From positions 1-27,985 of the IMG/VR virus record IMGVR_UViG_2609459774_000007: a stretch of 27,985 nt of DNA. One strand, written 5' to 3'. The notes below the pieces were generated by a model. The model was not told where the DNA came from, did not search any database, and was given only the letters and a program-made list of their open reading frames with translations. Made by a program: the position numbers and the translations under genes. Origin of the DNA: a virus (lineage: Duplodnaviria > Heunggongvirae > Uroviricota > Caudoviricetes). Positions 1,667 to 20,915 of this stretch are shown here, piece by piece. Within the stretch, counting starts at the first letter, position 1; every line of letters begins with the position of its first letter.

Positions 1667-1668
1667 AA

Positions 1669-1684: not shown

Positions 1685-1692
1685 TCTCTTTC

Positions 1693-1911: not shown

Positions 1912-1979
1912 ATCCAGATCCCTACCTTTGCTATCAGAATCATTGTAATGATACACATAATATCAATATTGAGAACACT

Positions 1980-3418: not shown

Positions 3419-3459
3419 GTCGTTTTCCGGTCCCAGAAACTGCGTGGACGGACGTCGGT

Positions 3460-4185
3460 TTACCCGACTGTTTGCCGCATGTCGCCAGCTGCGTTGATAC
3501 TGCAGTTGTCTTCCTGCCAGTAGATGGACAGGTTATCCAGACGGGTGATCAGCAGCGCATTCGGCGGGAAGAACGGCGCACGCACGGCCTGCAGGCCACC
3601 CATGCGTTTCTGGCTGATGATCATATCGGCAGCCAGTTTTTCACTGTTTTCCTGCTCTTTGTTGACCAGCGGGAAATACTTGTCAGACAACAGTTCACGA
3701 CCGCAAATCACCACCAGACCGTCATCGTCCTGGTAAACCACGTCGATAAGCTCATTGACGGCATCCATCACCACAGCGTCCAGGTTGGCATATTCGCCAC
3801 CTTTCCCGACTTTCACCGCACCCGGAGTGGTTTCACCGCCCGTGGTGGTGCTGCCCATGACGTGATCCGGTGCATCCTCACGGATTTTCTGCAGCCAGCC
3901 TTTGTTCACATCCTGCAGCAGCGGGTTTTCGCTACGGTTGGAGGTTTTCGCACGCTTCACGCCGTTAAAGCCGATCATGATGCGGTCCAGTGCCTGACGT
4001 TTCACGATGGCGTCACGGATGCGCACCTGGAAATCCTGAAACTTCGCCCACAGATCCAGCTTCGCGTAGGTCAGCACCGTGTCAAAGTTGGTCTGCTCGC
4101 ATTTATATTCCACATCGACCATCAGGGTCGGATCGGTGAAGTGATCGCCCTTGAGCCTGCGCTGGCAAAATACACCCGACGCGGA
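3460..4185 (-). pseudogene. N: P2 gpN-like major capsid protein, internal fragment (both ends missing)
   Basis: The 220-aa ORF (3460-4122) aligns with the middle of P2 gpN (YKCEQTNFD...LDLWAKFQDFQVRIRDAIVKRQ...GFNGVKRAKTS...VISQKRMGGL...LSIYW). The frame extends upstream to a stop at 4186-4188 without N-terminal homology, and the C-terminus diverges after SIYW. Confidence 0.75.
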
Positions 4186-4540
4186 TTAGACCTGGATACC
4201 TACTGGTTTGTGCAATACGGTATGACAACCCAGCCGTATCAGTTCACGAAAGGCAGCATTTTTCATCTGATGGAACCCACTGTAGAGCCAGCCCCTTCTC
4301 TTCATCACTACACTCACTAGCCGCTACAAGCTTAAGAAAAAAATCAATGCGCTGGAGCTTCAAAGACTCCAAAAAATAGTCCTGCATCTTTCCTCCTATA
4401 ACACCACACGCAATACTGTATGTATAACCACTGTTTATATTTACAGTATATAATAATCTTACTGATGTAAAACGTTTTTTTACATTCATCAGCCTGATAT
4501 GCCTGGTATTATTAAGAGCACGAATTGTTAACCCGCGTAA

Positions 4541-6955: not shown

Positions 6956-7917
6956 GCACGTACTCCGTACACGGCAGAACTATCCACGCCACGCGAATAA
7001 TCAAATCCCACCCAGCAGCGCGGCCCGGAAACAGCGATGATTTCTGTTGCAGATTTACTCTCACCAGCTGCTACGCCGATGCTGCGTTTTGCCTTGATGT
7101 AGTGGTGAGTAAAATTGCGATACAGCGAACGGATCAGGGATGTGTCACTGTTAGAAATAATGACCGGATGTCCTTCTGATGACCGATGTTCAAGAACGGA
7201 TGCCAGGTGATACTGGTCATCTTCAGTGAAGCCGTCAGTGTGATAACCGGAAAACGTGCCGTCATACGGCGGATCGCAATACACCACATCCCCCGCCTTC
7301 AACATCGCCAGCGTTTCATCAAAGCTGGCGCAGATAAACGTTGCCCGCTGGGCTTTTTCTGCAAATGCGCGAATTTCTTTTTCAGGAAAATACGGATTTT
7401 TATAATTACCGTAGGGAATGTTGAAATGCCCGCTCTTGTTATAGCGACATAAACCACGGTAACCGTGACGATTGAGATACAGGAAATATACCGCTTTCAT
7501 GAAATCAGTAATTTCAGTTGAGTAATTAAACTCCTGCCTTATGTTGTAATAAGCCACCTCCCTGTTTGCTTCCTCAAATAAAGCTCTGGCGCGAGATATA
7601 AACGATTCACAATCAGCAGCAACCTTTTTATAGAGGTTGATTAAATCAGGATTAATATCCGCAACAAGATAGCTGGGGTAGTGGATCTCCTGCGCTTCGT
7701 TCTGGATTGCTTCAGCGGTCACACGCAGCAGTTCTGCCGCTTCGACGTGGTTTAGCTGGCGGGATGTGATATGACACGCAAGACTATCAAGGCGGGCAGC
7801 CATTGCTTCAGCCCTTGCCCGGCGTTCTTCCAGACGAGCCTCTGTCAGTAAAATATTAAGCCCTGCGTCATCCGGTCCGATTTTAGTCGTGAGGGTTTCA
7901 ATATTACGCATAATCAA
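6952..7917 (-). CDS. Dam-like N6-adenine DNA methyltransferase (D12 class) with a non-canonical N-terminus
   Basis: Residues ~85-300 align with E. coli Dam from the ADIN(S/P)DLI(S/N)LY segment through FLYLNR.GY.GLCRYN, PYFPE and the catalytic DPPY motif (VVYCDPPY). The first ~85 aa are unrelated and the KWAGGK/FxGxG region is not seen. Confidence 0.8.
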
Positions 7918-7978
7918 TTCTCCTGAATTTAGATAAAGGGATGCCCGGCGGGTTTACGCCATTAATTTCATTAGCTGG

Positions 7979-8320
7979 TTAATTCGGCATGGTTAGCCGT
8001 CTGGGAAATAAGCTCACCACTGCACGAAAATGATTCATTGCTTTAATCAACTCCCGCTTTTCGTCAGTGGTCAGCTCATTAATGCTGATGCTATGACGTT
8101 CAGCTGGAATTTTTGCCATAAAGAATATGGCAGCCAGTGCCCGTTTATTTTGTTCGCTATTAATATCCCGTGGATCACGCATATCTTTAATAAACTGCTC
8201 AAGCTCTGACTCAATATTAAGACCAAAAACTTTCGCTCTTAATTCCGCAATGTGATTAAGTCCATTCAGGCGTTCACCGGGGCTTAATGGAACAGTCGCC
8301 GCAGCGCCTTCAATAGCCAT
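7979..8320 (-). CDS. hypothetical prophage early protein (position equivalent to 186 dhr)
   Basis: 113-aa ORF on the early-operon strand between the cII/fil region and dam; no recognisable motifs. Confidence 0.45.
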   Translation of the reverse strand: MAIEGAAATVPLSPGERLNGLNHIAELRAKVFGLNIESELEQFIKDMRDPRDINSEQNKRALAAIFFMAKIPAERHSISINELTTDEKRELIKAMNHFRAVVSLFPRRLTMPN

Positions 8321-8514
8321 TTGTTCCCCCGTTTTTTCGTTGATAGTTCTGCCAACAATTCATCTTGCGAACGGCACGGATGCCAGCGTTTACCATCCTC
8401 ACCCATGATCCAGCCGTGACCGTAGTGCATTGCCGGACTTTGTTTTACCAGCAGCGATGCAAATGATGGTTCTTTCGTCAGCATAAGCACCTCACAGCAA
8501 ACCGAATGAAGCAC
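8284..8514 (-). CDS. hypothetical small early protein, possibly Fil-like
   Basis: 76-aa ORF directly downstream of cII in the position occupied by fil in phage 186; overlaps both neighbours, as is common in compact phage operons. Assignment is by position only. Confidence 0.4.
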   Translation of the reverse strand: MLHSVCCEVLMLTKEPSFASLLVKQSPAMHYGHGWIMGEDGKRWHPCRSQDELLAELSTKKRGNKWLLKALRRLFH

Positions 8515-9001
8515 CGAGGCCAGTCACGGTATCAACTGCACTCGCCATCGCAGGATTAGCCTGTAAACGGGCCTGCAATGAAACAGCCGCCAGCGCCATC
8601 AGTCGTGTAACAGAGTTAATGCTGCTGATCGCATCACGACGGCCTGCACTGGTTTTTACATCGCCAGAAACCGCCCCTGCCGCAACACGCCCGATCTCTG
8701 CGGTTGCACTCATGACGTAATGTGGCAGTTTCTCTTTTGCTACCTCATTAATCGGTACACATGGCAGGCAGTGAATCTGTGCCAGAAAACCATCTATCAG
8801 CGTTGAGTCTTCTGTCAGATCGGTAAGCAGCCAGATTTCTGGCGCATTGAGCTGATGCGGTTGATCTGGGTTGAGTTTGTTTCGCAGTGTCTGAACATTC
8901 ATTCCTGCACGTTCTGCCAGCTTCGCCATATTGTGATGTAGTGCAAAAGCTCTACAGGCTTCATCAAAATGCGGGTGTTTGGAAATCTTATAATCAAACA
9001 T
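8492..9001 (-). CDS. cII: 186-type CII-like transcriptional activator
   Basis: 169-aa ORF, the length of phage 186 CII, with an N-terminal HTH-like segment; sits in the apl-cII-fil order downstream of the divergent cI/apl switch. Confidence 0.7.
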   Translation of the reverse strand: MFDYKISKHPHFDEACRAFALHHNMAKLAERAGMNVQTLRNKLNPDQPHQLNAPEIWLLTDLTEDSTLIDGFLAQIHCLPCVPINEVAKEKLPHYVMSATAEIGRVAAGAVSGDVKTSAGRRDAISSINSVTRLMALAAVSLQARLQANPAMASAVDTVTGLGASFGLL

Positions 9002-9276: not shown

Positions 9277-9392
9277 AGTGCAGTATCTCTTAGTTTGGTT
9301 TCGTTTTATCTTGTTTTATGTGGTTTGGTTTTGCTTTTCAAACCATAAATGGATATTAGGATCACTTTTTATATACGTCAAGAGGTTTGATT
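9277..9392. promoter_or_regulatory. divergent lysis-lysogeny switch region (apl/cI intergenic; candidate operators and promoters)
   Basis: 116-bp AT-rich intergenic region between divergent apl and cI, with repeated GTTTGGTTT / TGGTTTGGTTTTG motifs and an inverted AAACCA copy. Confidence 0.5.
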
Positions 9393-10025
9393 ATGAGTTT
9401 AATAAAGGCGGGAAATGATAGTGGTGGGCGCGATGCAATTAACAGGCTTATTAAGGCTTACAACTTCAGCTCACGACAGCAGCTCTGCGAACATCTGGAA
9501 GTATCAAAAAGCACTATGGCTAACAGATACTTAAGGGATAGCTTTCCTGCCGAATGGGTAATTCAATGTGCCCTTGAAACAGGAGCTTCCCTTCTATGGC
9601 TGGCTACTGGTCAAGGAGATATGTATGCGTGTGAGAACGAAGAAACAAATCTCAAAAATGAACCTCCTGTCACTGTAAGACCACTTTCTAAGATCGTTGC
9701 TCCTAGCATCAAACGTGTTGAACTGAAGAACGGCGAACTGCAGCCAAGTGATGAAATTCTTCTTGATAGCAGCCTGCTCGATGGTGACTCATCCAACGCT
9801 TTATTTGTTAAAACAGCTAATAATAGCTTTGTAGTGGATACGTCCGTTAAACAAGTCAGTAATGGCTTCTGGTTAGTCGATATGGACGGAGTTAAAAGCA
9901 TCGTTAAAATTGCGCGCATACCCGGAAACAAAATAGTAGTTAACCAAGATGACACTTCATTTGAATGTTCTGTAGATGATGTGGAAGTCGTAGGACGTGC
10001 AGTCAAAGTAATCAAGAACCTCTAA
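9393..10025 (+). CDS. cI: 186-type CI-like immunity repressor
   Basis: About 210 aa with an N-terminal HTH (VSKSTMANRYLRD...) and a C-terminal oligomerisation-like region; immediately upstream of int as in 186-type prophages. The track ORF starts at a TTG (9387); ATG at 9393 has AGAGG 7 nt upstream. Confidence 0.75.
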   Translation: MSLIKAGNDSGGRDAINRLIKAYNFSSRQQLCEHLEVSKSTMANRYLRDSFPAEWVIQCALETGASLLWLATGQGDMYACENEETNLKNEPPVTVRPLSKIVAPSIKRVELKNGELQPSDEILLDSSLLDGDSSNALFVKTANNSFVVDTSVKQVSNGFWLVDMDGVKSIVKIARIPGNKIVVNQDDTSFECSVDDVEVVGRAVKVIKNL

Positions 10026-10028
10026 CTT

Positions 10029-11048
10029 ATGACCATCAGAAAACAGCCGAACGGAAAATGGTTGTGTGAGTGCTATCCCAATGGACGCAATGGTAAGCGC
10101 GTGCGTAAGCAATTTGCTACCAAAGGCGAAGCCATTGCGTTTGAAAGCTTCACAATGGAAGAAGTGAACAAAAAACCGTGGTTAGGAGAAAAGGATGATC
10201 GGCGACACCTATCAGAATTAATTGAGCTTTGGTATTCCCTGTATGGTCAGACACTCGCAGACCCCAAGCGCCTCATGGCGAAACTTAGAATTATCTGTAA
10301 TGGTCTAGGCGACCCCATCGCCTCAGAACTGACAGCCGGTGACTTTACGAAATACCGCGAAGCACGGTTAAAAGGTGAAGTACGAAATGAAGATGGGACG
10401 CTTATGTCGCCCGTTAAGCCCCGCACGGTAAACCTCGAACAGCGCAATCTATCATCGGTGTTCGGTACATTAAAAAAACTAGGACACTGGTCAGCACCAA
10501 ACCCGCTGGCAGGACTTCCAACCTTCAAAATTGCCGAAGGTGAGCTGGCTTTTCTTTCCATGGACGAAATCAAGCGCCTGTTGGCTGCATGTGCTGAATC
10601 TCAAAGCCCCAGCTTATTAATGATTGCCAAAATATGTTTGGCTACCGGCGCACGTTGGAGCGAAGCCGAAAACCTGCATGGCCACCAAATATCGAAATAC
10701 CGAATTACTTATATAAAGACAAAAGGTAAGAAAAACAGAACAGTACCGATATCACAGGAACTATATGACGAACTCCCCAAGCACAGAGGGAAGTTATTCA
10801 CGCCATGCAGAAAAGCCTTTGAGCGTGCAGTAAAGCGGGCCGGTATTGAACTTCCGGAGGGGCAATGCACCCATGTATTACGTCATACATTCGCCAGCCA
10901 TTTTATGATGAACGGCGGAAACATACTGGTACTACGCGATATTCTGGGCCATGTGGATATAAAAATGACGATGATTTATGCCCACTTTTCCCCTGACCAC
11001 CTAGAAGATGCGGTAACAAAAAACCCACTGTTTAATTTAAAATGGTAA
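10029..11048 (+). CDS. int: P2-type tyrosine integrase
   Basis: 339-aa ORF with clear similarity to P2 Int (PxGRNGKRxRxxF...; catalytic-region HxLRHTFASHFMMNGG...MxYAHF); transcribed toward the attR repeat. Confidence 0.9.
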   Translation: MTIRKQPNGKWLCECYPNGRNGKRVRKQFATKGEAIAFESFTMEEVNKKPWLGEKDDRRHLSELIELWYSLYGQTLADPKRLMAKLRIICNGLGDPIASELTAGDFTKYREARLKGEVRNEDGTLMSPVKPRTVNLEQRNLSSVFGTLKKLGHWSAPNPLAGLPTFKIAEGELAFLSMDEIKRLLAACAESQSPSLLMIAKICLATGARWSEAENLHGHQISKYRITYIKTKGKKNRTVPISQELYDELPKHRGKLFTPCRKAFERAVKRAGIELPEGQCTHVLRHTFASHFMMNGGNILVLRDILGHVDIKMTMIYAHFSPDHLEDAVTKNPLFNLKW

Positions 11049-12583
11049 ATTTAACGATGAAAAGATTGAAATCAGTTTCCGATGCAGTTATCCAACTCAG
11101 ATTAAATGCGGTAAAAGCAAGTATTCAAAGCGTCAATCCAAACGAGTTTATAACACATTGCCTTGATTATAACCTCCAGAAATTTAACAATCAGCTTGAA
11201 ATGTTACAACACCTACCATGGGTTGTGAATTTATGCATTAAATGGTCCGCCAGTGCGCTGGGTAAAAAACGGAAATTTAAACATATTGACAGACCTGGTG
11301 CTGTCAGGTTGCTACAACGAGCATATGAGGAACTAAGTATAATTCCAACTGGTCTGGAAAATATAGACAAAGGGATTAACTTTTTCCTTAGAAATACGTT
11401 ATATCAACAAGGTATTTATCAAAGATTAGATGCTTTAAATACAATTAGCAGACAAGTTTTCTTGTTTTCTTCCTTAGATGACAACAATAGAATCAAGCGT
11501 AGATTCAAAGAACTTACTGATGTTGATATAAACGATTTTCTAAAACTATCATTTGTGTTAGTATCACTCGTTACCTTACAAGCACCAGTAAAGAAAATAA
11601 CAATAGATTCTTTCGCAGCTCTTTACTCCGTAATACCTAAAGATACAATCGAGAAATTTCTGAATACTATATCTATCCCTTACGAAGAACTAGCTCGGTT
11701 TTGCTGTACAAAAGATAATGAGACACCTTTAGTAGAATATTATGCTCCATCGCCTTTCTTAGAAAAACCTTTCATCAAATTCGAAGGAAATTATCACCAA
11801 ATACATACGCAGCTAACTTCGACCAGTATACAAACCTTTATATATGATTTGCTTCGCAGAGATGATGCAGAATCGTTCATGGACAAATTTGGGCGAGTTT
11901 TCGAAAATGCAGTCAACCAGCTATTAGATGAAAGTGGAATTGCTTATATTGCTGAAGGAAATTTAAAAGAATATCTACCTCAAGAGAATAAAGTTGTAGA
12001 TTTTCTACTACCTCATGATGAAGCTAACATTTTCATCGATGCTAAAGGTGTTGAGATAAACCAAAAGGGAATGGTTACACTACGACCAGGGGATATTTCT
12101 GCCAATATAAAAAGCTCCGTATTAAAAACTATAGAACAAGCACACTCAGTAAATAGAGAGCTAATTAAAAAAGGTAACCAAAATTTTTCTTTTAAAAAAG
12201 AGTCCTACATTTTATGTCTTACTTATAAAAATTTATTCCTTGGAAATGGTACATTTCTAAATAAATCCTATGCTAACATCGAAATGAAAAAAATCCGAGA
12301 TAGGCATTCAGAAGAATATCAAATACCTGATGAGAACATTTTCTGCATATCATTTGAGGAATTCGAGTATCTGCTATCTTCTTGCAAGGAATACTCAAAA
12401 CCTGTACATGAGGTACTGCGAGAAGCTGTAGTTAGAAACCAAACACCATCAAGTGCAGTTTTCCTTTTTGCACATCATATCCGTGACTCATTCCCCAAAA
12501 TACGTTCATCTGAGATCGTCAGGCTCGCAGGCTTGAGCGAGATCAACCATATCGTTGAACGATTAGAGCAAGCTGGCTCTTGA
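11042..12583 (+). CDS. uncharacterised 513-aa cargo protein with a putative C-terminal PD-(D/E)xK nuclease core
   Basis: Long AT-rich ORF between int and attR, overlapping the int stop (alternative start ATG 11057). The C-terminal half has E...VVDFLLP...IFIDAKG, fitting the E/D/(D/E)xK arrangement of PD-(D/E)xK nucleases; the N-terminal ~270 aa have no recognised motifs. Confidence 0.6.
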   Translation: MVNLTMKRLKSVSDAVIQLRLNAVKASIQSVNPNEFITHCLDYNLQKFNNQLEMLQHLPWVVNLCIKWSASALGKKRKFKHIDRPGAVRLLQRAYEELSIIPTGLENIDKGINFFLRNTLYQQGIYQRLDALNTISRQVFLFSSLDDNNRIKRRFKELTDVDINDFLKLSFVLVSLVTLQAPVKKITIDSFAALYSVIPKDTIEKFLNTISIPYEELARFCCTKDNETPLVEYYAPSPFLEKPFIKFEGNYHQIHTQLTSTSIQTFIYDLLRRDDAESFMDKFGRVFENAVNQLLDESGIAYIAEGNLKEYLPQENKVVDFLLPHDEANIFIDAKGVEINQKGMVTLRPGDISANIKSSVLKTIEQAHSVNRELIKKGNQNFSFKKESYILCLTYKNLFLGNGTFLNKSYANIEMKKIRDRHSEEYQIPDENIFCISFEEFEYLLSSCKEYSKPVHEVLREAVVRNQTPSSAVFLFAHHIRDSFPKIRSSEIVRLAGLSEINHIVERLEQAGS

Positions 12584-12712
12584 TTGCACAATTGCAAATT
12601 GGCGACAAATTGGCGGCAGAGCATTAAAAATGCGTAAAATAAACAAACACCAAATAATACTAATATGCTGTTTTAAAACATAAATATATGTTTTTATCAT
12701 AATAATAATGGT

Positions 12713-12761
12713 ATGTAGGAATTTCGGACGCGGGTTCAACTCCCGCCAGCTCCACCAAATA
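12713..12761. repeat. attachment-site direct repeat, copy 2 (partial ssrA 3' end; attR of the P2-like element and attL-type junction of the P4-like island)
   Basis: Exact 49-bp repeat of 1016-1064; the sequence upstream of it is unrelated to ssrA, so this is only a partial ssrA copy. Confidence 0.85.
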
Positions 12762-12791
12762 TTGATGTACTGAAGTTCAGTAAAGTCTACT

Positions 12792-12826
12792 AAGCCCGCA
12801 CAGCACAAGCTCTGCGGGCTTTTTTA
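12792..12826 (+). terminator. Rho-independent terminator downstream of the second att copy
   Basis: GC-rich stem GCCCGCA/TGCGGGC with a ~12-nt loop, followed by TTTTTT. Confidence 0.55.
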
Positions 12827-12923
12827 CGTCTATTGTAGTCTAGTGAGAATTGCTGAGAACTACGAGTTATGGCACCCTGAATGGGACCCACGAAGATGGG
12901 TCCTAAAATCGAGGGTCCCAAAC

Positions 12924-14153
12924 ATGGCCAAAATCGCTAAGAAGCTCACTGACACTGAAATCAAAAGCACCAAACCTGCCGAAAAAGAGGTTAACCTTTT
13001 TGACGGCGATGGTTTGCTGTTGCGAATCGCTCCCCTGGCGAAGGGAGGGAAGAAAAATTGGTATTTCAGATATGCAGTGCCTGTGACCAAAAAGCGAACT
13101 AAGGTGAGCTTAGGAACCTATCCTCACCTTACACTTGCGAAGGCACGAGCTTTACGTGATGAATACTTGTCGTTGCTTACAAATGGTATAGACCCCCAAG
13201 TTCATAACAACCAAAAAGCCAATGCACTGAAAGATGCCACGGAACATACATTTCAAGCAGTAGCCAAGAAGTGGCTTGATGAGAAAGTCAAAACGTCAGG
13301 CATCTCCCAAGATCATGCTAACGACATCTGGCGAAGCCTAGAGAGAAATATCTTTTCCACATTGGGTGATACCCCAATTAAGGAGATTCGCCCTAAAATG
13401 CTTAAACAGCATTTAGAACCCATAGAAAAACGAGGTGTCCTTGAAACACTTCGCCGCATCATATCCCGCCTGAATGAAATTTTCCGCTATGCAGCAACAG
13501 AAGAACTCATAGAATTCAACCCGGCAGACAACCTGGGGCAACGGTTCAGCAAGCCAAAAAAACAGAATATGCCAGCATTACCCCCTTCCGAACTCCCTCG
13601 CTTCTTGGTTGCTCTAAACAATGCTTCTATCCGTTTGGAAACAAGGCTACTGATTGAGTGGCAACTTCTCACATGGGTTCGCCCAGGTGAAGCTGTTCGC
13701 ACAAGATGGTCAGATATTGATATTGAAACTGGCATGTGGAACATCCCGGCGGAGTTTATGAAAATGAAGAAGCCTCACAAAGTTCCACTGAGCAAAGAAG
13801 CTTTGCGAGTTTTGGATTTAATGAAAGTCATCAGCGGGCATAGAGAGTGGGTGTTCCCCAGTATCAAAGCTCCACTCAATCACATGCATGAACAAACAGC
13901 TAATGCGGCCATAATCCGTATGGGTTTCGGAGGTGAGCTTGTAGCTCACGGTATGCGATCCATTGCTAGAACGGCTGCTGAGGAGTCTGGCAAGTTTAGG
14001 ACTGATGTCTTAGAAGCCGCCCTTGCCCACTCGAAGAAAGATGAAATAATTGCAGCCTACAATCGTGCAGAGTATCTCACTGAACGGGTGGTTCTCATGC
14101 AATGGTGGAGTGACTATGTTTCGTCTCAAAAATGCAAAGTTATTGCCGCATAA
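12924..14153 (+). CDS. P4/IntA-family tyrosine integrase
   Basis: Strong similarity to E. coli CP4-57 IntA as I recall it (LTDTEIK..KP, DIWRSLER, LETLRR, PLS.EAL.(V/I)L, HG.RSIA.TA, LAH, AYNR.(E/D)YL..R...MQWW.D). The track ORF starts at 12843; the homology-supported start is ATG 12924 (MAKIAKKLTDTEIK). Confidence 0.9.
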   Translation: MAKIAKKLTDTEIKSTKPAEKEVNLFDGDGLLLRIAPLAKGGKKNWYFRYAVPVTKKRTKVSLGTYPHLTLAKARALRDEYLSLLTNGIDPQVHNNQKANALKDATEHTFQAVAKKWLDEKVKTSGISQDHANDIWRSLERNIFSTLGDTPIKEIRPKMLKQHLEPIEKRGVLETLRRIISRLNEIFRYAATEELIEFNPADNLGQRFSKPKKQNMPALPPSELPRFLVALNNASIRLETRLLIEWQLLTWVRPGEAVRTRWSDIDIETGMWNIPAEFMKMKKPHKVPLSKEALRVLDLMKVISGHREWVFPSIKAPLNHMHEQTANAAIIRMGFGGELVAHGMRSIARTAAEESGKFRTDVLEAALAHSKKDEIIAAYNRAEYLTERVVLMQWWSDYVSSQKCKVIAA

Positions 14154-14215
14154 CTCTCCCATGATGGATTAACTATCTTGATTTAGTTAAAGAATTAATA
14201 ATCACACCATTAACC

Positions 14216-14265
14216 TATGTGGACTAAGCATAGCCATTTACAAATGGGGACATTGAGTCCACATA
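14216..14265. repeat. 50-bp nested inverted repeat (candidate recombinase or ParB binding/crossover site)
   Basis: Outer 10-bp arms TATGTGGACT / AGTCCACATA flank a 30-bp spacer that itself contains CCATTT-AC-AAATGG (6-bp arms around a non-palindromic AC centre); between intA and the serine recombinase gene. Confidence 0.5.
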
Positions 14266-14435
14266 ACGAAAGCTGTCGGTCATATCAGCTAAATAATTCA
14301 CATCTCTTCTCGATTATCATACACCTCGAAGATCTACCAAATTCGCTCTAATCAATGATAAAACAGTTGAATTCGGTTGAAATTTGATCAATTTTATCCA
14401 CTACATTGTATTGAATCATCCATGAGGTTTCGTGC

Positions 14436-15992
14436 ATGGCTAGCGAAAATGACAAAAATCATAGAGTTAGGGTCGCGCAGTACTTGAGGATGTCTACCGA
14501 CCATCAGCAATATTCTTTACATAATCAGTCCGAATATATCAAAGATTATGCTGAAAAGAACAATATGGAAATCGCTTATACCTACGATGATGCAGGTAAG
14601 AGCGGAGTCAGTATCGTAGGCAGGCATTCTTTGCAGCAGTTACTTAGCGATGTAGAACAAAAGAAAATAGATATACAGGCTGTATTATTTTATGATGTGA
14701 GCCGTTTTGGTCGTTTTCAAAATAGTGATGAAGCGGCATATTATTCCTTTCTATTTGAGAGAAATGGTGTAGATCTTATATATTGTTCCGAACCTATACC
14801 CACTAAAGATTTCCCTTTAGAGTCCTCTGTTATACTGAATATAAAAAGATCTAGTGCTGCATATCACAGCAGGAATCTATCTGAAAAGGTATTTATAGGG
14901 CAAGTAAATTTAATAAAGCTTGGTTATCATCAAGGCGGTATGGCTGGTTATGGGCTGAGACGTCTTTTAGTAGACGAAAATGGCATAGCTAAAGAAATAT
15001 TGAGTTTCCGCAAAAGAAAGAGTATTCAAACAGATAGGGTAATATTAATTCCGGGACCAAAAAATGAAATAAAAATTGTAAATAGAATATATGATCTCTT
15101 TATAGATAATAACGTCCCAGAATTCATTATTGCTGAGAGATTAAATGAACAGAACATACCTGCAGAAAATGGAACATTATGGACTCGTGCAAAAATACAT
15201 CAAATTTTGACAAATGAAAAATATATTGGAAACAACATATATAACAAAACCTCATCTAAATTAAAAAGTAGGCTTGTAAAAAACCCCAAACATGAATGGG
15301 TTAGATGTGACAAGGCATATAAACCTATTATTTCAAAGAAAAAATACAATAAAGCTCAAGAAATAATTCAGCTCCGATCCATTCATTTGACTAATGAAGA
15401 TCTATTAGAAAAACTAAAACAAAAATTAGAATCTAATGGAAAACTATCAGGCTTTATCATTGATGAAGATGATACAGGCCCTTCATCTTCTGTTTATAGA
15501 ACCCGATTTGGTGGTCTTTTAAGAGCATATACTTTGATTGGTTATAAGCCAGAACATGATTACAGCTATCTCAAAATAAATGAAGCACTAAGATCATTTT
15601 ACTCAGAGATAATTGAGGATTTTAAGGGTGAAATTTTAAAAAGTAACTGTCATATAGACGAGTATAAATATGCCCCAATGCTTTACATCAATGATGAGTT
15701 TTTAATTTCCGTCCTTGTTACTAAATGCATACATATGAAATCAGGTAAACTTAGATGGAAAGTCCGGTTTGATAACTCACAGAAAGCAGACATAACAATT
15801 GTTATACGAATGAATTCACAAAATATTTCACCTCTTGATTTTTATATCATACCAAAGATTGAAAACGAATATAATAAAATGTGCATGACGGAAACAAACA
15901 ACATTCGATTAGATCTCTATAGATTTGATAATCTTGATAAACTTCTACAAATTATTACTCGCATGAAAGTGAGGGAACTATATGCTGCCTGA
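14436..15992 (+). CDS. large serine recombinase (resolvase/invertase catalytic domain plus recombinase domain)
   Basis: 518-aa AT-rich ORF; the N-terminus has the serine-recombinase catalytic pattern (YLRMSTDHQQYSLHNQ ... YDDAGKSG ... DVSRFGR); RBS GAGG upstream. Confidence 0.85.
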   Translation: MASENDKNHRVRVAQYLRMSTDHQQYSLHNQSEYIKDYAEKNNMEIAYTYDDAGKSGVSIVGRHSLQQLLSDVEQKKIDIQAVLFYDVSRFGRFQNSDEAAYYSFLFERNGVDLIYCSEPIPTKDFPLESSVILNIKRSSAAYHSRNLSEKVFIGQVNLIKLGYHQGGMAGYGLRRLLVDENGIAKEILSFRKRKSIQTDRVILIPGPKNEIKIVNRIYDLFIDNNVPEFIIAERLNEQNIPAENGTLWTRAKIHQILTNEKYIGNNIYNKTSSKLKSRLVKNPKHEWVRCDKAYKPIISKKKYNKAQEIIQLRSIHLTNEDLLEKLKQKLESNGKLSGFIIDEDDTGPSSSVYRTRFGGLLRAYTLIGYKPEHDYSYLKINEALRSFYSEIIEDFKGEILKSNCHIDEYKYAPMLYINDEFLISVLVTKCIHMKSGKLRWKVRFDNSQKADITIVIRMNSQNISPLDFYIIPKIENEYNKMCMTETNNIRLDLYRFDNLDKLLQIITRMKVRELYAA

Positions 15993-16878
15993 AAAAAATG
16001 AATTCCCAATAATTCAAATTGAGATTGCAAAAATAAAATTTCTTAACCCACGAACAAGAAATAAGGTAGTGCATGAAGAAATAAAGGAAAGCATAAAAAA
16101 AAGAGGATTAAGCAAGCCAATAAGCGTAAGAGCTATTGATGAAGGCGATTTCAAATATGCTTTAATTTGTGGTCAAGGGAGAATAGAGGCTCTCGTTGCA
16201 TTAGGTGAAACTATTATTCCAGCAATTATAAGAGATGTATCAGAAGAAGATGCTTACGTTATGAGTTTAGTTGAAAACATTGCAAGGAGAAGGCCACGTT
16301 CTAATGAGTTATTACAGGTGATTAAAGACATGAAAATCAGAGGACTTTCAGACTCCGAAATAAGTGAGATTACTGGATATTCATCGAACTGGGTGAGCAG
16401 TATTAATATGCTACTTGATAAGGGAGAGCATAAACTTCTCTCAGCAGTCGAACGGGGTAATTTGCCTCTGTATCTCGCAGTGCAATTTGCAAGATGTGAA
16501 ACTGAGGAAGCACAAGATATTCTTACCGAAGCATATGATAAAAAATTAATAAAAAGTCGGGACATTATAAAGATAAAACACATTCTAAATCAAAGAACAG
16601 TTGGGAATAAAGGTGCAAAAGCAGCCGGATTTTATTATCACAAACCATCAAAAAGGATGACTGCAGAGGAGTTGATTGAGCTTTATGAAAATAGTATCGC
16701 TGAACATAAATCTGTTTATAACAACTCAAAATTCATAAAAACCAACCTACTAATAGTAAATGAGATTTTTAACATCATAATGATGAATAAAAGCTTTCAA
16801 CATATACTTGAACAAGAGAATCTTTCAGAACTACCATCTCAGATATTAACCCCAGTAAACAAAGAGGTATTAAAATGA
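15982..16878 (+). CDS. ParB/Srx-fold protein with HTH (ParB-like, paralogue 1)
   Basis: 298 aa; N-terminal ParB-like region (IQIEIAKIKFLNPR ... ISVRAIDEGDFKYALICGQGRIEAL ... IPAIIRDVSEEDAYVMSLVENIARR) followed by an HTH-like segment; start overlaps the recombinase stop. Confidence 0.7.
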   Translation: MLPEKNEFPIIQIEIAKIKFLNPRTRNKVVHEEIKESIKKRGLSKPISVRAIDEGDFKYALICGQGRIEALVALGETIIPAIIRDVSEEDAYVMSLVENIARRRPRSNELLQVIKDMKIRGLSDSEISEITGYSSNWVSSINMLLDKGEHKLLSAVERGNLPLYLAVQFARCETEEAQDILTEAYDKKLIKSRDIIKIKHILNQRTVGNKGAKAAGFYYHKPSKRMTAEELIELYENSIAEHKSVYNNSKFIKTNLLIVNEIFNIIMMNKSFQHILEQENLSELPSQILTPVNKEVLK

Positions 16879-17771
16879 TTCAGATACGTTTTGGCGATAA
16901 TTTTATTTACCTGGAAACTAATAAGTTAATTCCATCTAAGGAATTATTAGAAAACGTAAAGCGAAGCCATAAATATCATCAAATAGTTACCTCTATCGAA
17001 AGCTTAGGTATTATTGAACCAATAATAGTATTCTATGACAAAGATAAAGATGTCACTAAGATACTTGATGGCCATTTAAGGGTTGAGGCTTTAAAAGACT
17101 TAGGTATAGAAAAAGCTCCATGTATACTTTCGAGCATAGATGATGCTTTCACTCCTAACAAACAAGTGAATCATATAAATGTAGTTGAAGAACATAGAAT
17201 GATAATTAAGTCTCTGGCAAAAGTATCAATTGAAAAACTTAGTGCTGCTTTGGGCATATCTGTTGATGCCATAAAAGATAAAGCGAATGTGATGAACGGC
17301 ATAGATCCAAGTGTAATTGCGAAACTTTCTGATAAACCTATACCTAAGGCTACATTTGACGTTTTGAGGAAAATGAAGCCAATTCGCCAAATTGAAGCAG
17401 TCGGTACAATGATTAATTTTGATAATTATAGTAAAAAATTTGCAATGAGCATCTTGGATGCAACACCGGCATCGATGATAGTAAATAAAGGGAAAAACAC
17501 TCCCTATAAAAAGGACATAAAAAAAACCATACTTCGTCTGGAACAAGAAATGGCAACAACTTCGGAAGAAACGAAAAAGCTTCAAACCGAGTATGGTTCA
17601 GATATGTTGAAATTCGTTATAATCCAGTCATATATTAATAAATTACTTGGCAATTCTAAAGTTCTTCATTGGTTCTTAGAAAACGAGGTTGATTATCTTA
17701 ATGAGTTAAAAAGAATTTCTAGAATAAATTCTTTGGATGATAAGACTCTTACTGAAAACAGCAAGTCATAG
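16875..17771 (+). CDS. ParB/Srx-fold protein with HTH (ParB-like, paralogue 2)
   Basis: 298 aa; ParB-like N-terminal region with a DGHxR-type motif (ILDGHLRVEAL) and an HTH-like segment (LSAALGISVDAIKD); start overlaps the stop of the preceding ParB-like gene by 4 nt. Confidence 0.65.
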   Translation: MIQIRFGDNFIYLETNKLIPSKELLENVKRSHKYHQIVTSIESLGIIEPIIVFYDKDKDVTKILDGHLRVEALKDLGIEKAPCILSSIDDAFTPNKQVNHINVVEEHRMIIKSLAKVSIEKLSAALGISVDAIKDKANVMNGIDPSVIAKLSDKPIPKATFDVLRKMKPIRQIEAVGTMINFDNYSKKFAMSILDATPASMIVNKGKNTPYKKDIKKTILRLEQEMATTSEETKKLQTEYGSDMLKFVIIQSYINKLLGNSKVLHWFLENEVDYLNELKRISRINSLDDKTLTENSKS

Positions 17772-18879
17772 TCATGGTTTTATATAGCCTAAATAAACCA
17801 AGAAGTATACTTACACAACGACCTTCACGCCGAAGAAGCTGTCAGATACGCCAGCAACCAAAGCATTACGTTTAAGTGTCAGTCATTGATACGAAGGGAT
17901 AACTGCGTATCAGCAGCCGGACATTGAGTCGAATAAAGGCTGGTAGAGAGGGACAGTTCTGTGTCATCGGGAGATTCGTCAGAAACATCAGCGGCAGAAC
18001 AGATGAACCAGCAATTGGTAGTGCACAGAAAACTCTCCAGTATTTAATTATTCAACTTAACACTAAAAAAAATCACATAGTTAATATCATAATTTTTCTT
18101 TGGTCTACGTATGCGAGAGATATTGTGGCTTTAACCGGGTATTAGGAGTCGTTTCAGATAAAAGATGTTCTTCGATTCGACTGGACTTGGTAATAGCAAT
18201 AAGTAATCGTTAATATTGAAGGACGAAAGGCTACTTCAAAACAAAGTAACCTTTCCAATATTCCCATCTATGGGACAAGTGGTACATTAACTGCACATAG
18301 TGCAGGATACATATGACATAAAACTTTTTATTTATGGCATACATTATAAATAACTTGTATTTTATGAATGTCAATAGGTTCTTGTTTAATACTTTTAAAA
18401 TTATTAATTGATTGTTTTTATTATAGCTTCGCTTGTACAAGCGAAGATCCTATTGTTCTTGAATGAATAATGCCAATTATAAGAGAAGCAAGGGCTAACT
18501 CTGCGAAGCCGCTGCGCTTGCTTCTTCGAGTTCCCCTTGCTTTTCTGCCCTTCGGTTATAAAAGAAGCCAAACTGCTACCAACCTTGAATCTCTATATTT
18601 TTGAATAGACAAACATTACCCGCTCCCTTAATCACCACTATCAAAAATAAAAAATCATCTTACAAATAACCCCATACACATCATTTTAGATTGCGACCTT
18701 ATTAAATTAAAAATTCAACCTTAGATGGAATTTAATGTACAAGGAATGTCCTACTGTAACGGAGAATTTTAAACATTAAAAATTACAACTATGGTTTGTC
18801 ATAGCCTGTACATCTATTCACCTCATGCATATGCACTAAGAAAGCTTTTTTGAATACTGGAGTTGTCCCTGCTAAAACG

Positions 18880-19210
18880 GACACGGCTAATTAACTGCTA
18901 ATATGGCATCACGATATTCGCGTGGCGATTTCATGTTCAACCCCTTGTGTGGATGCAGATTATTATAATCCTCTATCTATTCTGCCATTGTTTCCATCAT
19001 TTAGACTGCATCCAGCAGATCATCTACGTACACATAATCCCGCTTGAACGTCTTTACAAACGATTCTGCCATGCCGTTACTTCCCGGACTGCGTACTGGT
19101 GTAGTACACACGATGAACCACAGTGAACTAGCGAATGTGCGCGTGGCATCGGCTGTGCAGCAATTATGCCAATGACACTGGCTCCATTGACGGCAATGAC
19201 CTGACATCTA
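18880..19210 (-). pseudogene. IS3-family (IS2-like) transposase 3' fragment, frameshifted remnant
   Basis: Two frames on the minus strand give ...RSPGSNGMAESFVKTFKRDY... and ...HPHKGLNMKSPREYRDA..., matching the C-terminal region of IS2 InsD-type transposases ([20 protein letters not shown] ... [14 protein letters not shown]); no intact ORF. Confidence 0.6.
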
Positions 19211-19367
19211 CAATCCCGCTACAAAGCATTTACTCCATGAGTCATTGCACTTGCTGAGCTACACGAACACACTAAAACCAGATAATAATTAATCGCTGTA
19301 TAAGCTCGTAACAAGCGGAACTTTAAGGCAAAATAGGGCCATCTTCCCCCTTCATAAGGTTACGCTA

Positions 19368-20915
19368 ATGGCCAGAAAACCTAAAGAAATCAAAACAGAC
19401 CCGTTAGAGGTCATCCTGTGGAAAGCGGCAGACAAACTGCGTAAAAACATTGATGCAGCCGAGTACAAGCACGTCGTACTAGGCCTCATTTTCCTTAAGT
19501 ACATTTCTGATTCTTTTGAATCTCATTATGAGTTGCTGAAAGCCGGTAAAGGCGAGTTCGCAGGTGCTGATCCGGAAGACAAAGACGAGTACACCGCTTA
19601 CAACGTTTTCTTTGTCCCTGAGCTTGCACGTTGGAACTATCTGATTTCTAAGGCCAAGCTTCCTGAAATCGGTAAGATGGTTGATGATGCGATGGAGCTT
19701 ATCGAAGCGGGCAATCCACAGTTAAAAGGTGTGTTGCCGAAAGTCTATGCCCGACAAAACCTCGACGCCACTGTTCTGGGTGAGCTGATAGATCTGATTG
19801 GCAACATTGCACTAGGAGATGCCAAAGCACGCTCTGCTGACGTTTTAGGTCACGTATTCGAATACTTCCTAGGTGAATTTGCACTGGCAGAAGGCAAACA
19901 AGGCGGCCAGTTCTATACGCCAAAATCTATTGTAAGCCTGCTGGTTAACATGCTGGAACCCTATAAAGGCCGTGTCTTTGATCCCTGCTGTGGTTCTGGT
20001 GGTATGTTCGTTCAGTCAGAAAAATTTGTAGAAGCACATCAGGGAAATATTGACGATATTTCGATCTATGGGCAGGAGTCCAACCAGACCACTTGGCGTC
20101 TGGCAAAAATGAACCTGGCAATTCGTGGGATTAATTCTGAACACGTTCGCTGGAATAATGAAGGTTCATTTCTTAACGATGCTCACAAAGATTTGAAATC
20201 TGATTTTATCATAGCTAACCCACCGTTTAACGTTTCCGACTGGTCTGGTGAGCAGCTTCGTGGTGATGCCCGCTGGCAATATGGCATTCCACCTGCTGGC
20301 AACGCTAACTTTGCATGGATGCAACATTTTTTGTATCACTTGTCTCCTAAAGGGCAAGCGGGTGTTGTTCTGGCAAAAGGGGCATTAACTTCTAAAAGCT
20401 CTGGTGAAGGTGATATTCGTGCTGCACTGGTAAAAGATGCCAATGTGATTGACTGTATCGTCAACTTACCGGCAAAGCTGTTCCTGAATACTCAGATCCC
20501 TGCTGCATTATGGTTTATGCGCCGTGACCGTCATAACAGCAACCAGTATCGTGATCGTAGTAAAGAAATTCTGTTTATTGATGCCCGTAATCTCGGTCAT
20601 TTAATTAATCGTCGTACCAAAGTACTTTCTGACGACGATATAAAAACCATCGCTGATACCTATCATAACTGGCGTAACAAAGGTGGCGACTACGAAGACG
20701 TCGCTGGTTTCTGTGCGTCAGTAGACATTGCTGAAGTTGCTAAACTCGATTATGTGCTGACACCTGGCCGTTATGTTGGTCTTGCTGATGAAGAAGACGA
20801 TTTCGACTTTAAAGAACGCTTTACGGCTCTTAAAGCTGAGTTTGAAGCGCAACTGGAAGAAGAGGCGCGTCTGAACAGAGCCATCGTTGATAATCTGGCG
20901 AAGGTGGTTTTATGA
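19368..20915 (+). CDS. hsdM: type I restriction-modification system, DNA methyltransferase subunit
   Basis: 515-aa ORF with an HsdM-type N-terminus and the N6-adenine methyltransferase catalytic motif NPPF (IIANPPFN); start overlaps nothing upstream and its stop overlaps the hsdS start by 4 nt. Confidence 0.92.

What the first reader, a model, noticed from the sequence alone, without database searches (positions are those of the whole stretch)
14436..17771. AT-rich three-gene operon: large serine recombinase plus two tandem ParB-like HTH proteins
The three ORFs are on the same strand with overlapping start/stop codons (15982/15992 and 16875/16878), indicating one translationally coupled operon, and the whole block is markedly AT-rich relative to the flanking intA and hsd genes. 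The first protein has a clear serine-recombinase catalytic N-terminus and large-recombinase length; the next two are divergent paralogues with ParB/Srx-type N-terminal domains and HTH segments. There is no ParA-type ATPase, so this is not a standard partition cassette, and a tyrosine integrase already serves the island. The combination could be a nested mobile element with its own integrase and ParB-like excision or maintenance factors, a DNA-inversion switch, or a defence or gene-silencing-relief module (ParB-fold proteins recur in DNA-modification and defence systems). I do not recognise it as a named system.
Basis: partly seen in the sequence, partly recalled or inferred. Interest (0 to 1): 0.7.

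Follow-up and report, generated by a model that had tools for sequence, protein, structure and literature searches.

The report
Conserved serine-recombinase plus two-ParB module
Behind the integrase of an E. coli ssrA genomic island sits a real three-gene operon, a serine recombinase lacking its usual DNA-recognition domain plus two ParB-type DNA-binding proteins, which travels as one fixed unit through islands, prophages and plasmids of many bacteria and has no described function.

Summary
Three overlapping same-strand ORFs (14436-17771) encode a catalytically intact large-type serine recombinase (SR) and two ParB_N+RepB proteins (PB1, PB2). The block is AT-rich and lies just after a P4-type integrase at a duplicated ssrA attachment site.

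The order SR-PB1-PB2 held in every related locus with enough sequence: 80 species genomes, about 50 IMG/VR contigs, and both plasmid loci inspected (103 plasmid records match PB2). This held down to about 30% PB2 identity. Both flanks vary, and no ParA ATPase recurs nearby.

SR matches phage serine integrases only over the catalytic and recombinase domains. It lacks the zinc-ribbon/coiled-coil domain and has its own conserved C-terminal domain. PB1 keeps all three ParB CTP-switch motifs; PB2 keeps one.

Neighbours are integrases or host genes upstream, and restriction, helicase, Abi or prophage-tail genes downstream. PADLOC, NCBIfam, Rfam and the literature searches gave no name for the module.

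Most likely it is a ParB-directed site-specific recombination module serving mobility or maintenance of cargo islands, by analogy with Gamma-Mobile-Trio systems. A defence role is the main rival.

A large, mainly alphaproteobacterial branch also carries a strongly covarying, undescribed structured RNA right after PB2. It was not detected in this window.

The parts
14436..15992 (+). SR: large-type serine recombinase (518 aa). It has the catalytic domain, the recombinase domain and a family-specific C-terminal domain (about residues 315-518). It has no zinc ribbon or coiled coil.
   Evidence: Pfam Resolvase 7.7e-22 and Recombinase 6e-22. Invariant Y16, R18, S20, D87, R90 and R93 in an essentially gapless family alignment. 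The AF2 model matches the SPbeta, Bxb1 and phiC31 integrases over only about 325 columns. Homologues carry only PF00239 and PF07508.
15982..16878 (+). PB1: ParB/Noc/KorB-like protein (298 aa) with all three ParB CTP-switch boxes conserved (NPRxR; CGQGRxEA; ENxARR) and a helix-turn-helix region. Its start overlaps the SR stop by 11 nt.
   Evidence: Pfam ParB_N 1.6e-13 and RepB 8.5e-08. NCBIfam parB_part above its cut-off. PDB sequence hits to Spo0J, Myxococcus ParB, Noc and KorB. Invariant columns in alignment A6.
16875..17771 (+). PB2: RepB-type ParB paralogue (298 aa). Only the DGHLRVEA box is invariant and the other CTP boxes are degenerate. It has a long C-terminal helix. Its ATG overlaps the PB1 stop (ATGA).
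   Evidence: Pfam RepB 2.2e-24 and ParB_N 1.1e-05. Invariant D65, G66, R69 and E71. The AF2 model (pLDDT 78.5) matches CTP-bound ParB, Noc and KorB structures. The family has 424 clusters (50% identity) at E <= 1e-30.
14154..14435 (+). 282-bp spacer between intA and SR. It belongs to the block that travels with the trio in this lineage. It holds a 50-bp imperfect palindrome (14216-14265, TATGTGGACT...AGTCCACATA), a candidate protein-binding or recombination site. No consensus sigma-70 promoter was found on the + strand.
   Evidence: A TGTGG...CCACA palindrome lies upstream of SR in three independent enterobacterial lineages, against a background of 0.011 per 500 nt. It is not universal, and its function is untested.
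17772..17822 (+). About 50-bp tail after the PB2 stop, conserved in all E. coli-type copies. Beyond it, lineages diverge into different cargo.
   Evidence: Homology between the window lineage and the L005/L006 lineage ends 51 nt past the last PB2 codon. Only these ~50 nt after the stop are shared by the ~560 genomes lacking the TIGR04141 cargo.
12843..14153 (+). Context: a P4-type tyrosine integrase (intA) directly upstream on the same strand. This allele co-occurs with the trio in E. coli.
   Evidence: Pfam Arm-DNA-bind_3, Phage_int_M and Phage_integrase. The near-identical allele is limited to about the same number of genomes as the trio. Integrase and trio phylogenies are incongruent across lineages.
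12714..12761 (+). Context: a second copy of the ssrA 3' end (attachment-site repeat). It marks the left end of the island that holds intA and the trio, and shows that two islands sit in tandem at ssrA.
   Evidence: Exact 26-nt repeat at 1035-1060 and 12732-12757, none expected by chance. Sequences. In APEC O78 the island follows ssrA directly.

Best explanation
The trio is a self-contained, horizontally exchanged site-specific recombination module of mobile elements. SR is an active serine recombinase that has lost the zinc-ribbon/coiled-coil domain, which in phage serine integrases recognises att sites and controls synapsis. PB1, a ParB-type CTP switch with a helix-turn-helix, and PB2, its degenerate RepB-type partner, most likely act as a heteromer. 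That heteromer would bind a specific DNA site and recruit or license SR through SR's own conserved C-terminal domain.

The biological job is most likely movement or maintenance of cargo-carrying islands: integration/excision, or resolution of the circular form. In this window that would be the ssrA island carrying the type I restriction system. The logic resembles Gamma-Mobile-Trio islands, where recombinases plus a partition-type DNA-binding protein mobilise defence-rich cargo.

Shown: the domain content, the conserved catalytic and CTP-motif residues, the strict synteny, the block-wise horizontal exchange and the position at island edges. Inferred: the PB1/PB2-SR interaction, the DNA site, and the biological role.
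For: 1. Strict SR-PB1-PB2 order and strand in all 80 genome loci and about 50 IMG/VR loci where sequence allows, down to about 30% PB2 identity. The two plasmid loci inspected, including pAtC58, also carry the full trio.
2. Start/stop overlaps in the window.
3. The SR catalytic residues are invariant and the whole 518-aa protein aligns essentially without gaps, including the C-terminal domain. The fold matches serine integrases only over the catalytic and recombinase domains. No zinc-ribbon Pfam domain appears anywhere in the family.
4. PB1 keeps all three CTP boxes. PB2 matches CTP-bound ParB, Noc and KorB folds.
5. DNA homology between different hosts is confined to the block. It runs from about -80 to -300 upstream of SR to about +10 to +50 after PB2 in Enterobacterales, and from the SR start to the end of the 3' RNA in Rhodobacterales.
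6. The position is typical of integration modules. In the Enterobacterales loci analysed, the trio lies directly after a P4-type integrase on the same strand at 283-504 bp, across several integrase families that are not congruent with the trio. Truncated or convergent integrase genes lie immediately downstream in at least five other lineages. Host core genes are often the next upstream neighbours, and variable cargo lies downstream.
7. Precedent: GMT islands need two tyrosine recombinases plus an StbA-like partition-type DNA binder to excise and insert, and they carry defence cargo (bioRxiv 10.1101/2023.03.28.534373).
Against: No pair of attachment sites, terminal repeats or empty site was found. 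The one informative boundary pair (L009/L015) shows no shared core dinucleotide or terminal inverted repeat.

In E. coli there is a single copy per genome, and nearly all copies sit in one context. So there is no sign of recent independent movement.

Where a P4-type integrase is present it could do the integration alone, leaving SR without an obvious task.

The trio occurs on megaplasmids, which presumably have replication and partition systems of their own (not checked).

IS insertions in SR and truncated PB2 variants show the module is dispensable.

The SR-PB1/PB2 interaction was not modelled.
Confidence: 0.4

Rival explanations
1. The trio is an anti-phage or anti-plasmid defence (or inter-element exclusion) system. 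The ParB-type proteins would load on invading DNA, and the serine recombinase, which makes covalent double-strand breaks, would cut or rearrange it.
For: The module behaves like defence cargo. It is a discrete block shuffled between islands, prophage ends and plasmids. It is sporadic: 12% of E. coli genomes and 499 of 185,579 species. It lies among type I restriction, TIGR04141/DUF6119 with Hxs radical-SAM genes, helicases matching Gabija, Zorya, DISARM, Dpd or BREX models, AbiEii, Fic, RloB and toxin-antitoxin genes. In alphaproteobacterial prophages it lies in the accessory region beside tail-fibre genes. It is often inactivated by IS elements.
Against: SR and PB1 match no PADLOC model at all, and PB2's only match is its ParB-like N-terminus against a type II methyltransferase model, not a system component. 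I know of no precedent for a serine recombinase as a defence effector. ParB loading is normally sequence-specific, which suits self-recognition better than sensing invaders. The neighbourhood evidence is not quantified against a background and equally fits a mobility module that carries defence cargo.
Confidence: 0.3
2. The trio alone is a minimal selfish mobile element of about 3.6-4 kb: a serine-recombinase 'transposon' that inserts by itself, preferentially at the edges of other islands or next to integrase genes. The surrounding cargo would belong to other elements.
For: Nearly identical trios (95-97%) sit in two unrelated contexts, with homology limited to -227...+19 around the genes and no shared cargo (L009/L010 against L015). 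The 94-97% E. coli-type lineage is flanked by integrase sequence on both sides and occurs both at ssrA and inside a tRNA-Arg island. Integrase and trio phylogenies are incongruent.
Against: There is one copy per genome and essentially one site in 655 E. coli genomes. No conserved termini were found at the block ends. In Enterobacterales nothing beyond about 20-50 bp after the stop codon is conserved. The downstream integrase fragments are equally well explained by tandem island accretion followed by deletion. In L031 the fragment is not a copy of the upstream integrase.
Confidence: 0.12
3. The trio is an ordinary partition or stability cassette (centromere-binding proteins plus a multimer resolvase), as on plasmids, that simply came along with plasmid-derived DNA.
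For: Both ParB-like proteins hit the RepB partition family. The module occurs on rhizobial and Burkholderia plasmids. Resolvase-plus-stability operons exist, for example the RK2 par locus (my own knowledge).
Against: There is no ParA or Walker ATPase in the window or among the recurrent neighbours. Nearly all genome-scan and E. coli copies are chromosomal. The recombinase is a 518-aa large-type enzyme, not a small resolvase. No repA/repC partners lie adjacent. No repeated centromere-like array was found.
Confidence: 0.05
4. The trio is a DNA-inversion (phase-variation) switch controlling neighbouring genes such as the type I restriction system.
For: A serine recombinase lies upstream of hsdMSR. 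Phase-variable restriction systems are known (my own knowledge).
Against: No inverted repeats bracket any nearby segment. The downstream genes differ between lineages that carry the same trio. SR is not a Hin/Gin-type invertase.
Confidence: 0.03

Closest known systems
Large serine recombinases / serine integrases and transposases (phiC31 Int, Bxb1 gp35, SPbeta SprA, TnpX, CcrAB)
   Same: The N-terminal catalytic domain has the Ser nucleophile and the conserved Arg/Asp residues. It is followed by the long helix and the 'Recombinase' domain. The AF2 model aligns to the SprA, Bxb1 and phiC31 structures at E 1e-10 to 1e-15. The size is about 520 aa.
   Different: There is no zinc-ribbon domain and no coiled-coil motif. 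Instead there is a family-specific, highly conserved C-terminal domain of about 200 aa. The gene is always followed by two ParB-type genes. No att sites were identified.
Gamma-Mobile-Trio (GMT) islands (bioRxiv 10.1101/2023.03.28.534373)
   Same: Three conserved adjacent genes combine recombinase activity with a partition-family DNA-binding protein. They sit at the edge of islands whose variable cargo is rich in defence genes, on chromosomes and plasmids.
   Different: GMT uses two tyrosine-type recombinases and an StbA-like binder. Here there is one serine recombinase and two ParB-family proteins. GMT mobility, circular form and insertion sites are shown experimentally; nothing is shown for this trio. 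Distribution here extends beyond Gammaproteobacteria.
ParB-family CTP switches without ParA (KorB, Noc, VirB)
   Same: PB1 keeps the three CTP-binding boxes and the helix-turn-helix. PB1 matches Spo0J/ParB, Noc and KorB by sequence, and the PB2 model matches them by fold. As with KorB, Noc and VirB, no ParA partner is present.
   Different: Here two divergent paralogues are always paired, one with a degenerate nucleotide pocket, and they are coupled to a recombinase. No binding site is known.
RepB of repABC replicons
   Same: The Pfam RepB domain is present in both proteins and is strong in PB2.
   Different: No repA or repC lies adjacent. NCBIfam RepB equivalog scores are far below cut-off.
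XisF-XisH-XisI of the Anabaena fdxN element (my own knowledge)
   Same: A large serine recombinase whose reaction needs two small accessory proteins encoded next to it.
   Different: The accessory proteins belong to unrelated families. Pfam reports only ParB_N and RepB for PB1 and PB2 and no XisH or XisI match.

Membership tests
Large serine recombinase (serine integrase) family | N-terminal resolvase-type catalytic domain with the serine nucleophile and conserved Arg/Asp residues | tested here: met
   Pfam Resolvase 7.7e-22. Y16, R18, S20, D87, R90 and R93 are invariant in 31- and 63-sequence alignments.
Large serine recombinase (serine integrase) family | 'Recombinase' DNA-binding domain after the long E helix | tested here: met
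   Pfam Recombinase 6e-22 at residues 210-312. Structural match to SprA, Bxb1 and phiC31 over about 325 columns.
Large serine recombinase (serine integrase) family | Zinc-ribbon domain with embedded coiled-coil (att-site recognition and directionality control) | tested here: not met
   No Zn_ribbon_recom hit in the query or in any listed homologue, which carry only PF00239 and PF07508. Only one Cys (C431) is invariant or nearly invariant in the C-terminal half. Fold matches stop after the recombinase domain.
Large serine recombinase (serine integrase) family | attP/attB (or attL/attR) sites bounding a mobile element | tested here: inconclusive
   No repeats bracket the block in the window. No shared core or terminal inverted repeats at the L009/L015 boundaries. 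A 50-bp imperfect palindrome at 14216-14265 has serine-integrase-att-like geometry but is not general.
ParABS partition system | ParA/Walker-type ATPase encoded with ParB | tested here: not met
   None in the annotated island. None in the plasmid examples next to the trio. None among the 25 commonest Pfam families of upstream or downstream neighbours.
ParABS partition system | ParB with N-terminal CTP-binding boxes and helix-turn-helix | tested here: met
   PB1 has NPRxR, CGQGRxEA and ENxARR invariant and scores above the NCBIfam parB_part cut-off. PB2 meets this only partly.
ParABS partition system | parS centromere sites near the operon | tested here: inconclusive
   No repeated array was found. 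Palindromes upstream of SR are enriched about 2.5-fold over control windows but are lineage-specific.
repABC RepB | RepB partition protein flanked by repA and repC in one operon | tested here: not met
   The RepB Pfam domain is present, but NCBIfam RepB equivalogs score 35.6 against a cut-off of 201.5, and no repA or repC lies next to the trio.
Known anti-phage defence systems (PADLOC-DB 2.0) | Match of the component proteins to a system's HMMs | tested here: not met
   No hits for SR or PB1. PB2 matches only through its ParB-like N-terminus to a type II methyltransferase model.
Hin/Gin/Pin-type DNA invertase switch | Small serine invertase with a C-terminal HTH and inverted recombination sites bracketing an invertible segment | tested here: not met
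   SR is 518 aa with a Recombinase domain. The invertase equivalog scores 24 bits against a cut-off of 272. No bracketing inverted repeats were found.
Gamma-Mobile-Trio islands | GmtY/GmtZ tyrosine recombinases plus an StbA-like GmtX | tested here: not met
   The trio here holds a serine recombinase and ParB-family proteins. GMT composition is taken from the paper. The resemblance is in logic only, not in membership.
Rfam RNA families (for the 3' RNA of relatives) | Match to a curated covariance model | tested here: not met
   No Rfam 15 hit at E <= 5 over the element in L058, and none in the window near the trio.

The most novel reading that the evidence does not exclude
The SR-PB1-PB2 module is a new kind of DNA-recombination machine. 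ParB-family CTP-switch proteins would replace the recombinase's own DNA-recognition domain to choose the site and time of serine recombination. In a large, mainly alphaproteobacterial branch a dedicated structured RNA would be an additional component. It would work either as a new mobility system for defence islands or as a new anti-plasmid/anti-phage system.
Probability: 0.25. Interest if true: 0.85.

Novelty: new variant of a known kind. Interest (0 to 1): 0.6.

Why it matters
Serine integrases are major genome-engineering tools. Their site choice and directionality depend on the zinc-ribbon/coiled-coil domain that this family lacks. A widespread family that has handed this task to two ParB-type proteins would show a new way to target and control serine recombination. 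It would also add a new function for ParB CTP switches.

If the module mobilises islands, it would explain how restriction and other defence cargo spreads at hotspots such as ssrA in E. coli, Enterobacter, Salmonella and Cronobacter. It would also add a serine-recombinase counterpart to GMT islands. If it is a defence system, it would be the first built on a serine recombinase.

The structured RNA found in relatives is a well-supported new RNA family with an obvious protein context to test.

Tried and rejected
1. Looked for the 3' RNA in the window and in Enterobacterales. Model R1 with default filters and the broader core model R2 (filters off on the window; default on 50 loci) found nothing. 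The best window hit was 6.9 bits at an unrelated place.
2. No element after the PB2 stop is shared across the enterobacterial lineages.
3. Searched for attachment sites. Only two copies of the ssrA 3' end exist in the window. No direct or inverted repeats bracket the trio. No terminal repeats or common core were seen at the L009/L015 block ends.
4. Tested whether the 14216-14265 palindrome is a general cis site. A TGTGG...CCACA palindrome recurs in three lineages, and palindromes are about 2.5-fold enriched upstream of SR. Sequences are lineage-specific, and an AAGGGCAAC-type palindrome occurs in only three loci.
5. Tested the idea that the trio inserts into integrase 3' ends while restoring the gene. 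Downstream integrase fragments exist. In L031 the fragment is not a copy of the upstream integrase, and no trio-free copy of the TIGR04141 island was found in E. coli. Tandem accretion plus deletion explains the data equally well.
6. PADLOC and NCBIfam gave no system name. Seven literature searches found no characterisation. One accession hit merely mentions the genes next to an Stx2l prophage, and another concerned pinR/pinQ.
7. The first SR homology search returned only near-identical proteins and had to be repeated with a profile.
9. The promoter/terminator scan gave no signal above shuffled expectation.


Full report
**Observation**

The window is an E. coli ssrA region: smpB at 1-483 and tmRNA at 698-1060. 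GC is 0.29-0.36 across them, against 0.42-0.47 in the flanking integrase and hsdM genes, although other nearby segments are equally AT-rich.

Pfam gives Resolvase + Recombinase for ORF1 (SR), and ParB_N + RepB for ORF2 (PB1) and ORF3 (PB2). PB1 and PB2 are only remotely alike: 30% identity over 63 residues.

The trio lies 283 bp after a P4-type tyrosine integrase (12843-14153). That integrase follows a second copy of the ssrA 3' end (12714-12761). The window therefore holds two islands in tandem. In APEC O78 the integrase-trio island follows ssrA directly and continues with an IS remnant, hsdMSR, IS1, an ankyrin-repeat gene and IS2.

**Distribution and unit character**

The trio is present once per genome in 655-660 of 5,426 complete E. 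coli genomes, always on the chromosome.

A scan of one genome per species found PB2 relatives in 499 species. In all 80 best loci, SR, PB1 and PB2 are adjacent in the same order and strand wherever the contig reaches. The hosts include:
- Enterobacterales
- Rhodobacterales, Rhizobiales, Caulobacterales and Acetobacterales
- Achromobacter and Nevskia
- a Thermoanaerobaculia MAG.

The same holds in about 50 IMG/VR contigs, down to 29-33% PB2 identity. PB2 relatives also match 103 plasmid records. Both plasmid loci inspected carry the full trio: Agrobacterium pAtC58 (ATU_RS24145-24135) and a 30-kb Paraburkholderia plasmid. The PB2 family comprises 424 clusters (50% identity) at E <= 1e-30.

DNA comparison between loci shows that homology is confined to the block itself.
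- In Enterobacterales it runs from about 80-300 bp upstream of SR to about 10-50 bp after the PB2 stop.
- In Rhodobacterales, copies 85-90% identical in different genera start to align at the SR start codon and stop about 170-245 bp after PB2.

**The proteins**

*SR.* Relatives align over all 518 residues essentially without gaps. The catalytic residues are invariant: Y16, R18, S20 (the nucleophile in YxRMST), D87, R90 and R93. The C-terminal 200 residues are also highly conserved.

The AlphaFold model (pLDDT 70) matches the SPbeta, Bxb1 and phiC31 integrases over only about 325 columns, which is the catalytic plus recombinase domains. Neither the query nor any listed homologue has a zinc-ribbon domain. 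SR is therefore a large-type serine recombinase in which the att-recognition and directionality domain has been replaced by a domain of its own.

*PB1.* It keeps all three ParB CTP-switch boxes as invariant columns: NPRxR, CGQGRxEA and ENxARR. By sequence it matches Spo0J, Myxococcus ParB, Noc and KorB.

*PB2.* It keeps only the DGHLRVEA box. Its model matches CTP-bound ParB, Noc and KorB structures, and it carries a long C-terminal helix.

**Neighbourhood**

Flanks vary on both sides.

*Upstream.* A cluster of P4-type integrase genes lies immediately upstream on the same strand in 13 Enterobacterales loci. In the loci measured the gap to SR is 283-504 bp. The integrases belong to different families and their divergence is not congruent with that of the trio. 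For example, integrase identity is 80% where SR identity is 61%, and a 95%-identical SR occurs with and without an integrase. Elsewhere the upstream neighbours are small divergent genes, an HTH regulator or ParE in alphaproteobacteria, or ordinary host genes such as AcrB, LysR regulators and transporters.

*Downstream.* Truncated integrase genes lie directly after PB2 in at least three lineages, and convergent full-length ones in two more.

*Downstream cargo.* This is highly diverse. It includes:
- type I restriction genes
- TIGR04141/DUF6119 with HxsABCD radical-SAM genes
- helicases matching Gabija, Zorya, DISARM, Dpd or BREX models
- AbiEii-type ATPases, Fic, WYL and RelA/SpoT-domain proteins.

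In at least 16 alphaproteobacterial proviruses the trio lies beside GTA-like tail-fibre genes. No ParA family is among the 25 commonest Pfam families on either flank.

One E. coli lineage (95% identity) carries the trio inside a tRNA-Arg island, flanked by integrase fragments on both sides.

**A structured RNA in relatives (not in the window)**

In a large, mainly alphaproteobacterial branch, the roughly 200-250 nt right after PB2 are more conserved than the genes themselves. Indels of 2 and 11 nt exclude a coding function.

A covariance model finds this element in 37 loci in the first search set and in 37 in the second, mostly IMG/VR contigs. In each locus the top hit starts at or within about 170 nt of the PB2 end, on the same strand.

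On an independent MAFFT alignment of the 127-nt core from 43 loci, a seven-helix structure gives:
- 95.8% paired cells, against 33-44% when the partners are slid
- compensatory double changes in 17 of 33 pairs, against 2-4 in the slid controls
- 0 of 500 shuffles reaching the observed values.

Frequent G-U pairs on the + strand indicate an RNA transcribed with the operon. Rfam 15 has no match. Neither model detects the element in the window or in any enterobacterial locus.

**Interpretation**

The molecular picture is reasonably well supported. It is an active serine recombinase without its usual DNA-recognition domain, permanently coupled to a pair of ParB-family DNA binders, one of them with an intact CTP switch. 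The likeliest mechanism is that PB1/PB2 recognise a DNA site and recruit or license SR through its C-terminal domain. That step is inference.

For the biological role I favour a mobility or maintenance module of cargo islands, at confidence 0.4. The reasons are:
- the block sits where integration modules sit, at island edges and next to or between integrases
- variable cargo lies downstream
- it occurs on chromosomes, prophages and plasmids
- GMT islands offer a close functional precedent.

The main weakness is that no attachment sites, termini or empty sites could be found. In addition, E. coli copies show no independent movement.

The rivals are:
- A defence or exclusion function (0.3) fits the neighbourhood and the sporadic, often IS-disrupted distribution. 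It has no PADLOC component-level match and no known precedent.
- A trio-only selfish element (0.12) fits the L009/L015 comparison. It lacks termini and multicopy evidence.
- A plain partition cassette (0.05) is contradicted by the data.
- An inversion switch (0.03) is also contradicted by the data.

**Novelty**

No curated family, defence catalogue, RNA family or paper accessible here describes the module. Seven literature searches found nothing on it. Its parts belong to known families, so I rate it a new variant of a known kind (site-specific recombination systems) with a well-supported new RNA family attached in relatives. The function is open and directly testable.

Noticed in passing
L045:10904-11031 (core). 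Also L050:9381-9508, L064:6941-7067, L113:6556-6683 and about 70 further loci, always right after the PB2 homologue.: An undescribed structured RNA of about 130-250 nt at the 3' end of the operon in a large, mainly alphaproteobacterial branch. The core is nearly invariant. Seven helices show 95.8% pairing and compensatory changes in 17 of 33 pairs. G-U pairs lie on the sense strand. There is no Rfam match, and it was not detected in the window or in Enterobacterales.
   Followed up: yes
window 9387-12583: A second tight operon in the island between ssrA and the second att copy: a 212-aa ORF, a XerC/integron-like tyrosine recombinase (10029-11048) and a GapS1 anti-phage protein (11042-12583; NCBIfam 4.5e-120). 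Starts and stops overlap. GC is 0.34.
   Followed up: partly
window 1184-9001: The rest of the first island looks like a decayed P2-type prophage or satellite with extra genes: a P2-family major capsid fragment (3460-4122, -), a VgrG-related/phage protein (1980-3080, -), a Dam-family methyltransferase (6952-7917, -) overlapping an 804-aa protein with no family hit (4541-6955, -), and a YmfL-like regulator (8492-9001, -).
   Followed up: partly
window 1035-1060 and 12732-12757: Exact duplication of the ssrA 3' end shows two islands integrated in tandem at ssrA. In APEC O78 only the integrase-trio island is present.
   Followed up: yes
window 14216-14265: A 50-bp imperfect palindrome (TATGTGGACT...AGTCCACATA) lies about 170-220 bp upstream of SR. 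Similar TGTGG...CCACA palindromes lie upstream of SR in Rahnella (L017) and Samsonia (L020). The geometry resembles a serine-integrase att site or an operator. It is not general.
   Followed up: partly
L005:10947-11203; L006:4337-4627; L164:15452-15676; also L104-L107, L026, L031 and L111: 5'-truncated tyrosine-integrase fragments lie immediately downstream of PB2 on the same strand in several lineages. In the E. coli-type lineage the fragment covers the last ~100 codons and is 65-72% identical to the upstream integrase. This is either tandem-island decay or a hint at a target preference for integrase genes.
   Followed up: partly
L164 (E. coli GF153) 11176-20859: A 95%-identical trio sits inside a tRNA-Arg island rather than at ssrA. 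It is preceded by a truncated intA and followed by TIGR04141 plus hxsA, hxsC, hxsB and hxsD. A similar DUF6119/radical-SAM cargo also follows much more divergent trios (L025, L027, L029, L033, L038).
   Followed up: partly
E. coli EC19/EC20/EC24 (H1-H3), 2017.10.01CC (H92), CM2010-0578/1 (H101); protein cluster P0030: IS5 or IS3 insertions lie within the trio region in several E. coli genomes (SR is annotated in two pieces). A 178-aa truncated PB2 variant is common (386 member sequences). The module is dispensable and often decaying.
   Followed up: no
It lies in the 17772-18566 stretch shared with Enterobacter, Leclercia and Phytobacter copies, but outside the block common to all lineages.
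   Followed up: no
L064:2691-3413(-), L039:757-1440(-), L084:6083-6490(-), L085:4862-5209(-), L082:7041-7424(-): In many non-enterobacterial loci a small gene is transcribed divergently from SR. In one cluster it is a 228-240-aa protein with a C-terminal HTH_11/DeoR-like domain, sometimes next to ParE-type toxin genes. It is a possible regulator of the operon and is absent from the window.
   Followed up: partly
L131:7287-7327, L132:2910-2950, L067:381-400: Paired 20-bp palindromes of the type AAGGGCAAC-TT-GTTGCCCTT lie about 180-205 bp upstream of SR in three alphaproteobacterial lineages. They are candidate operator or ParB sites of those lineages.
   Followed up: partly
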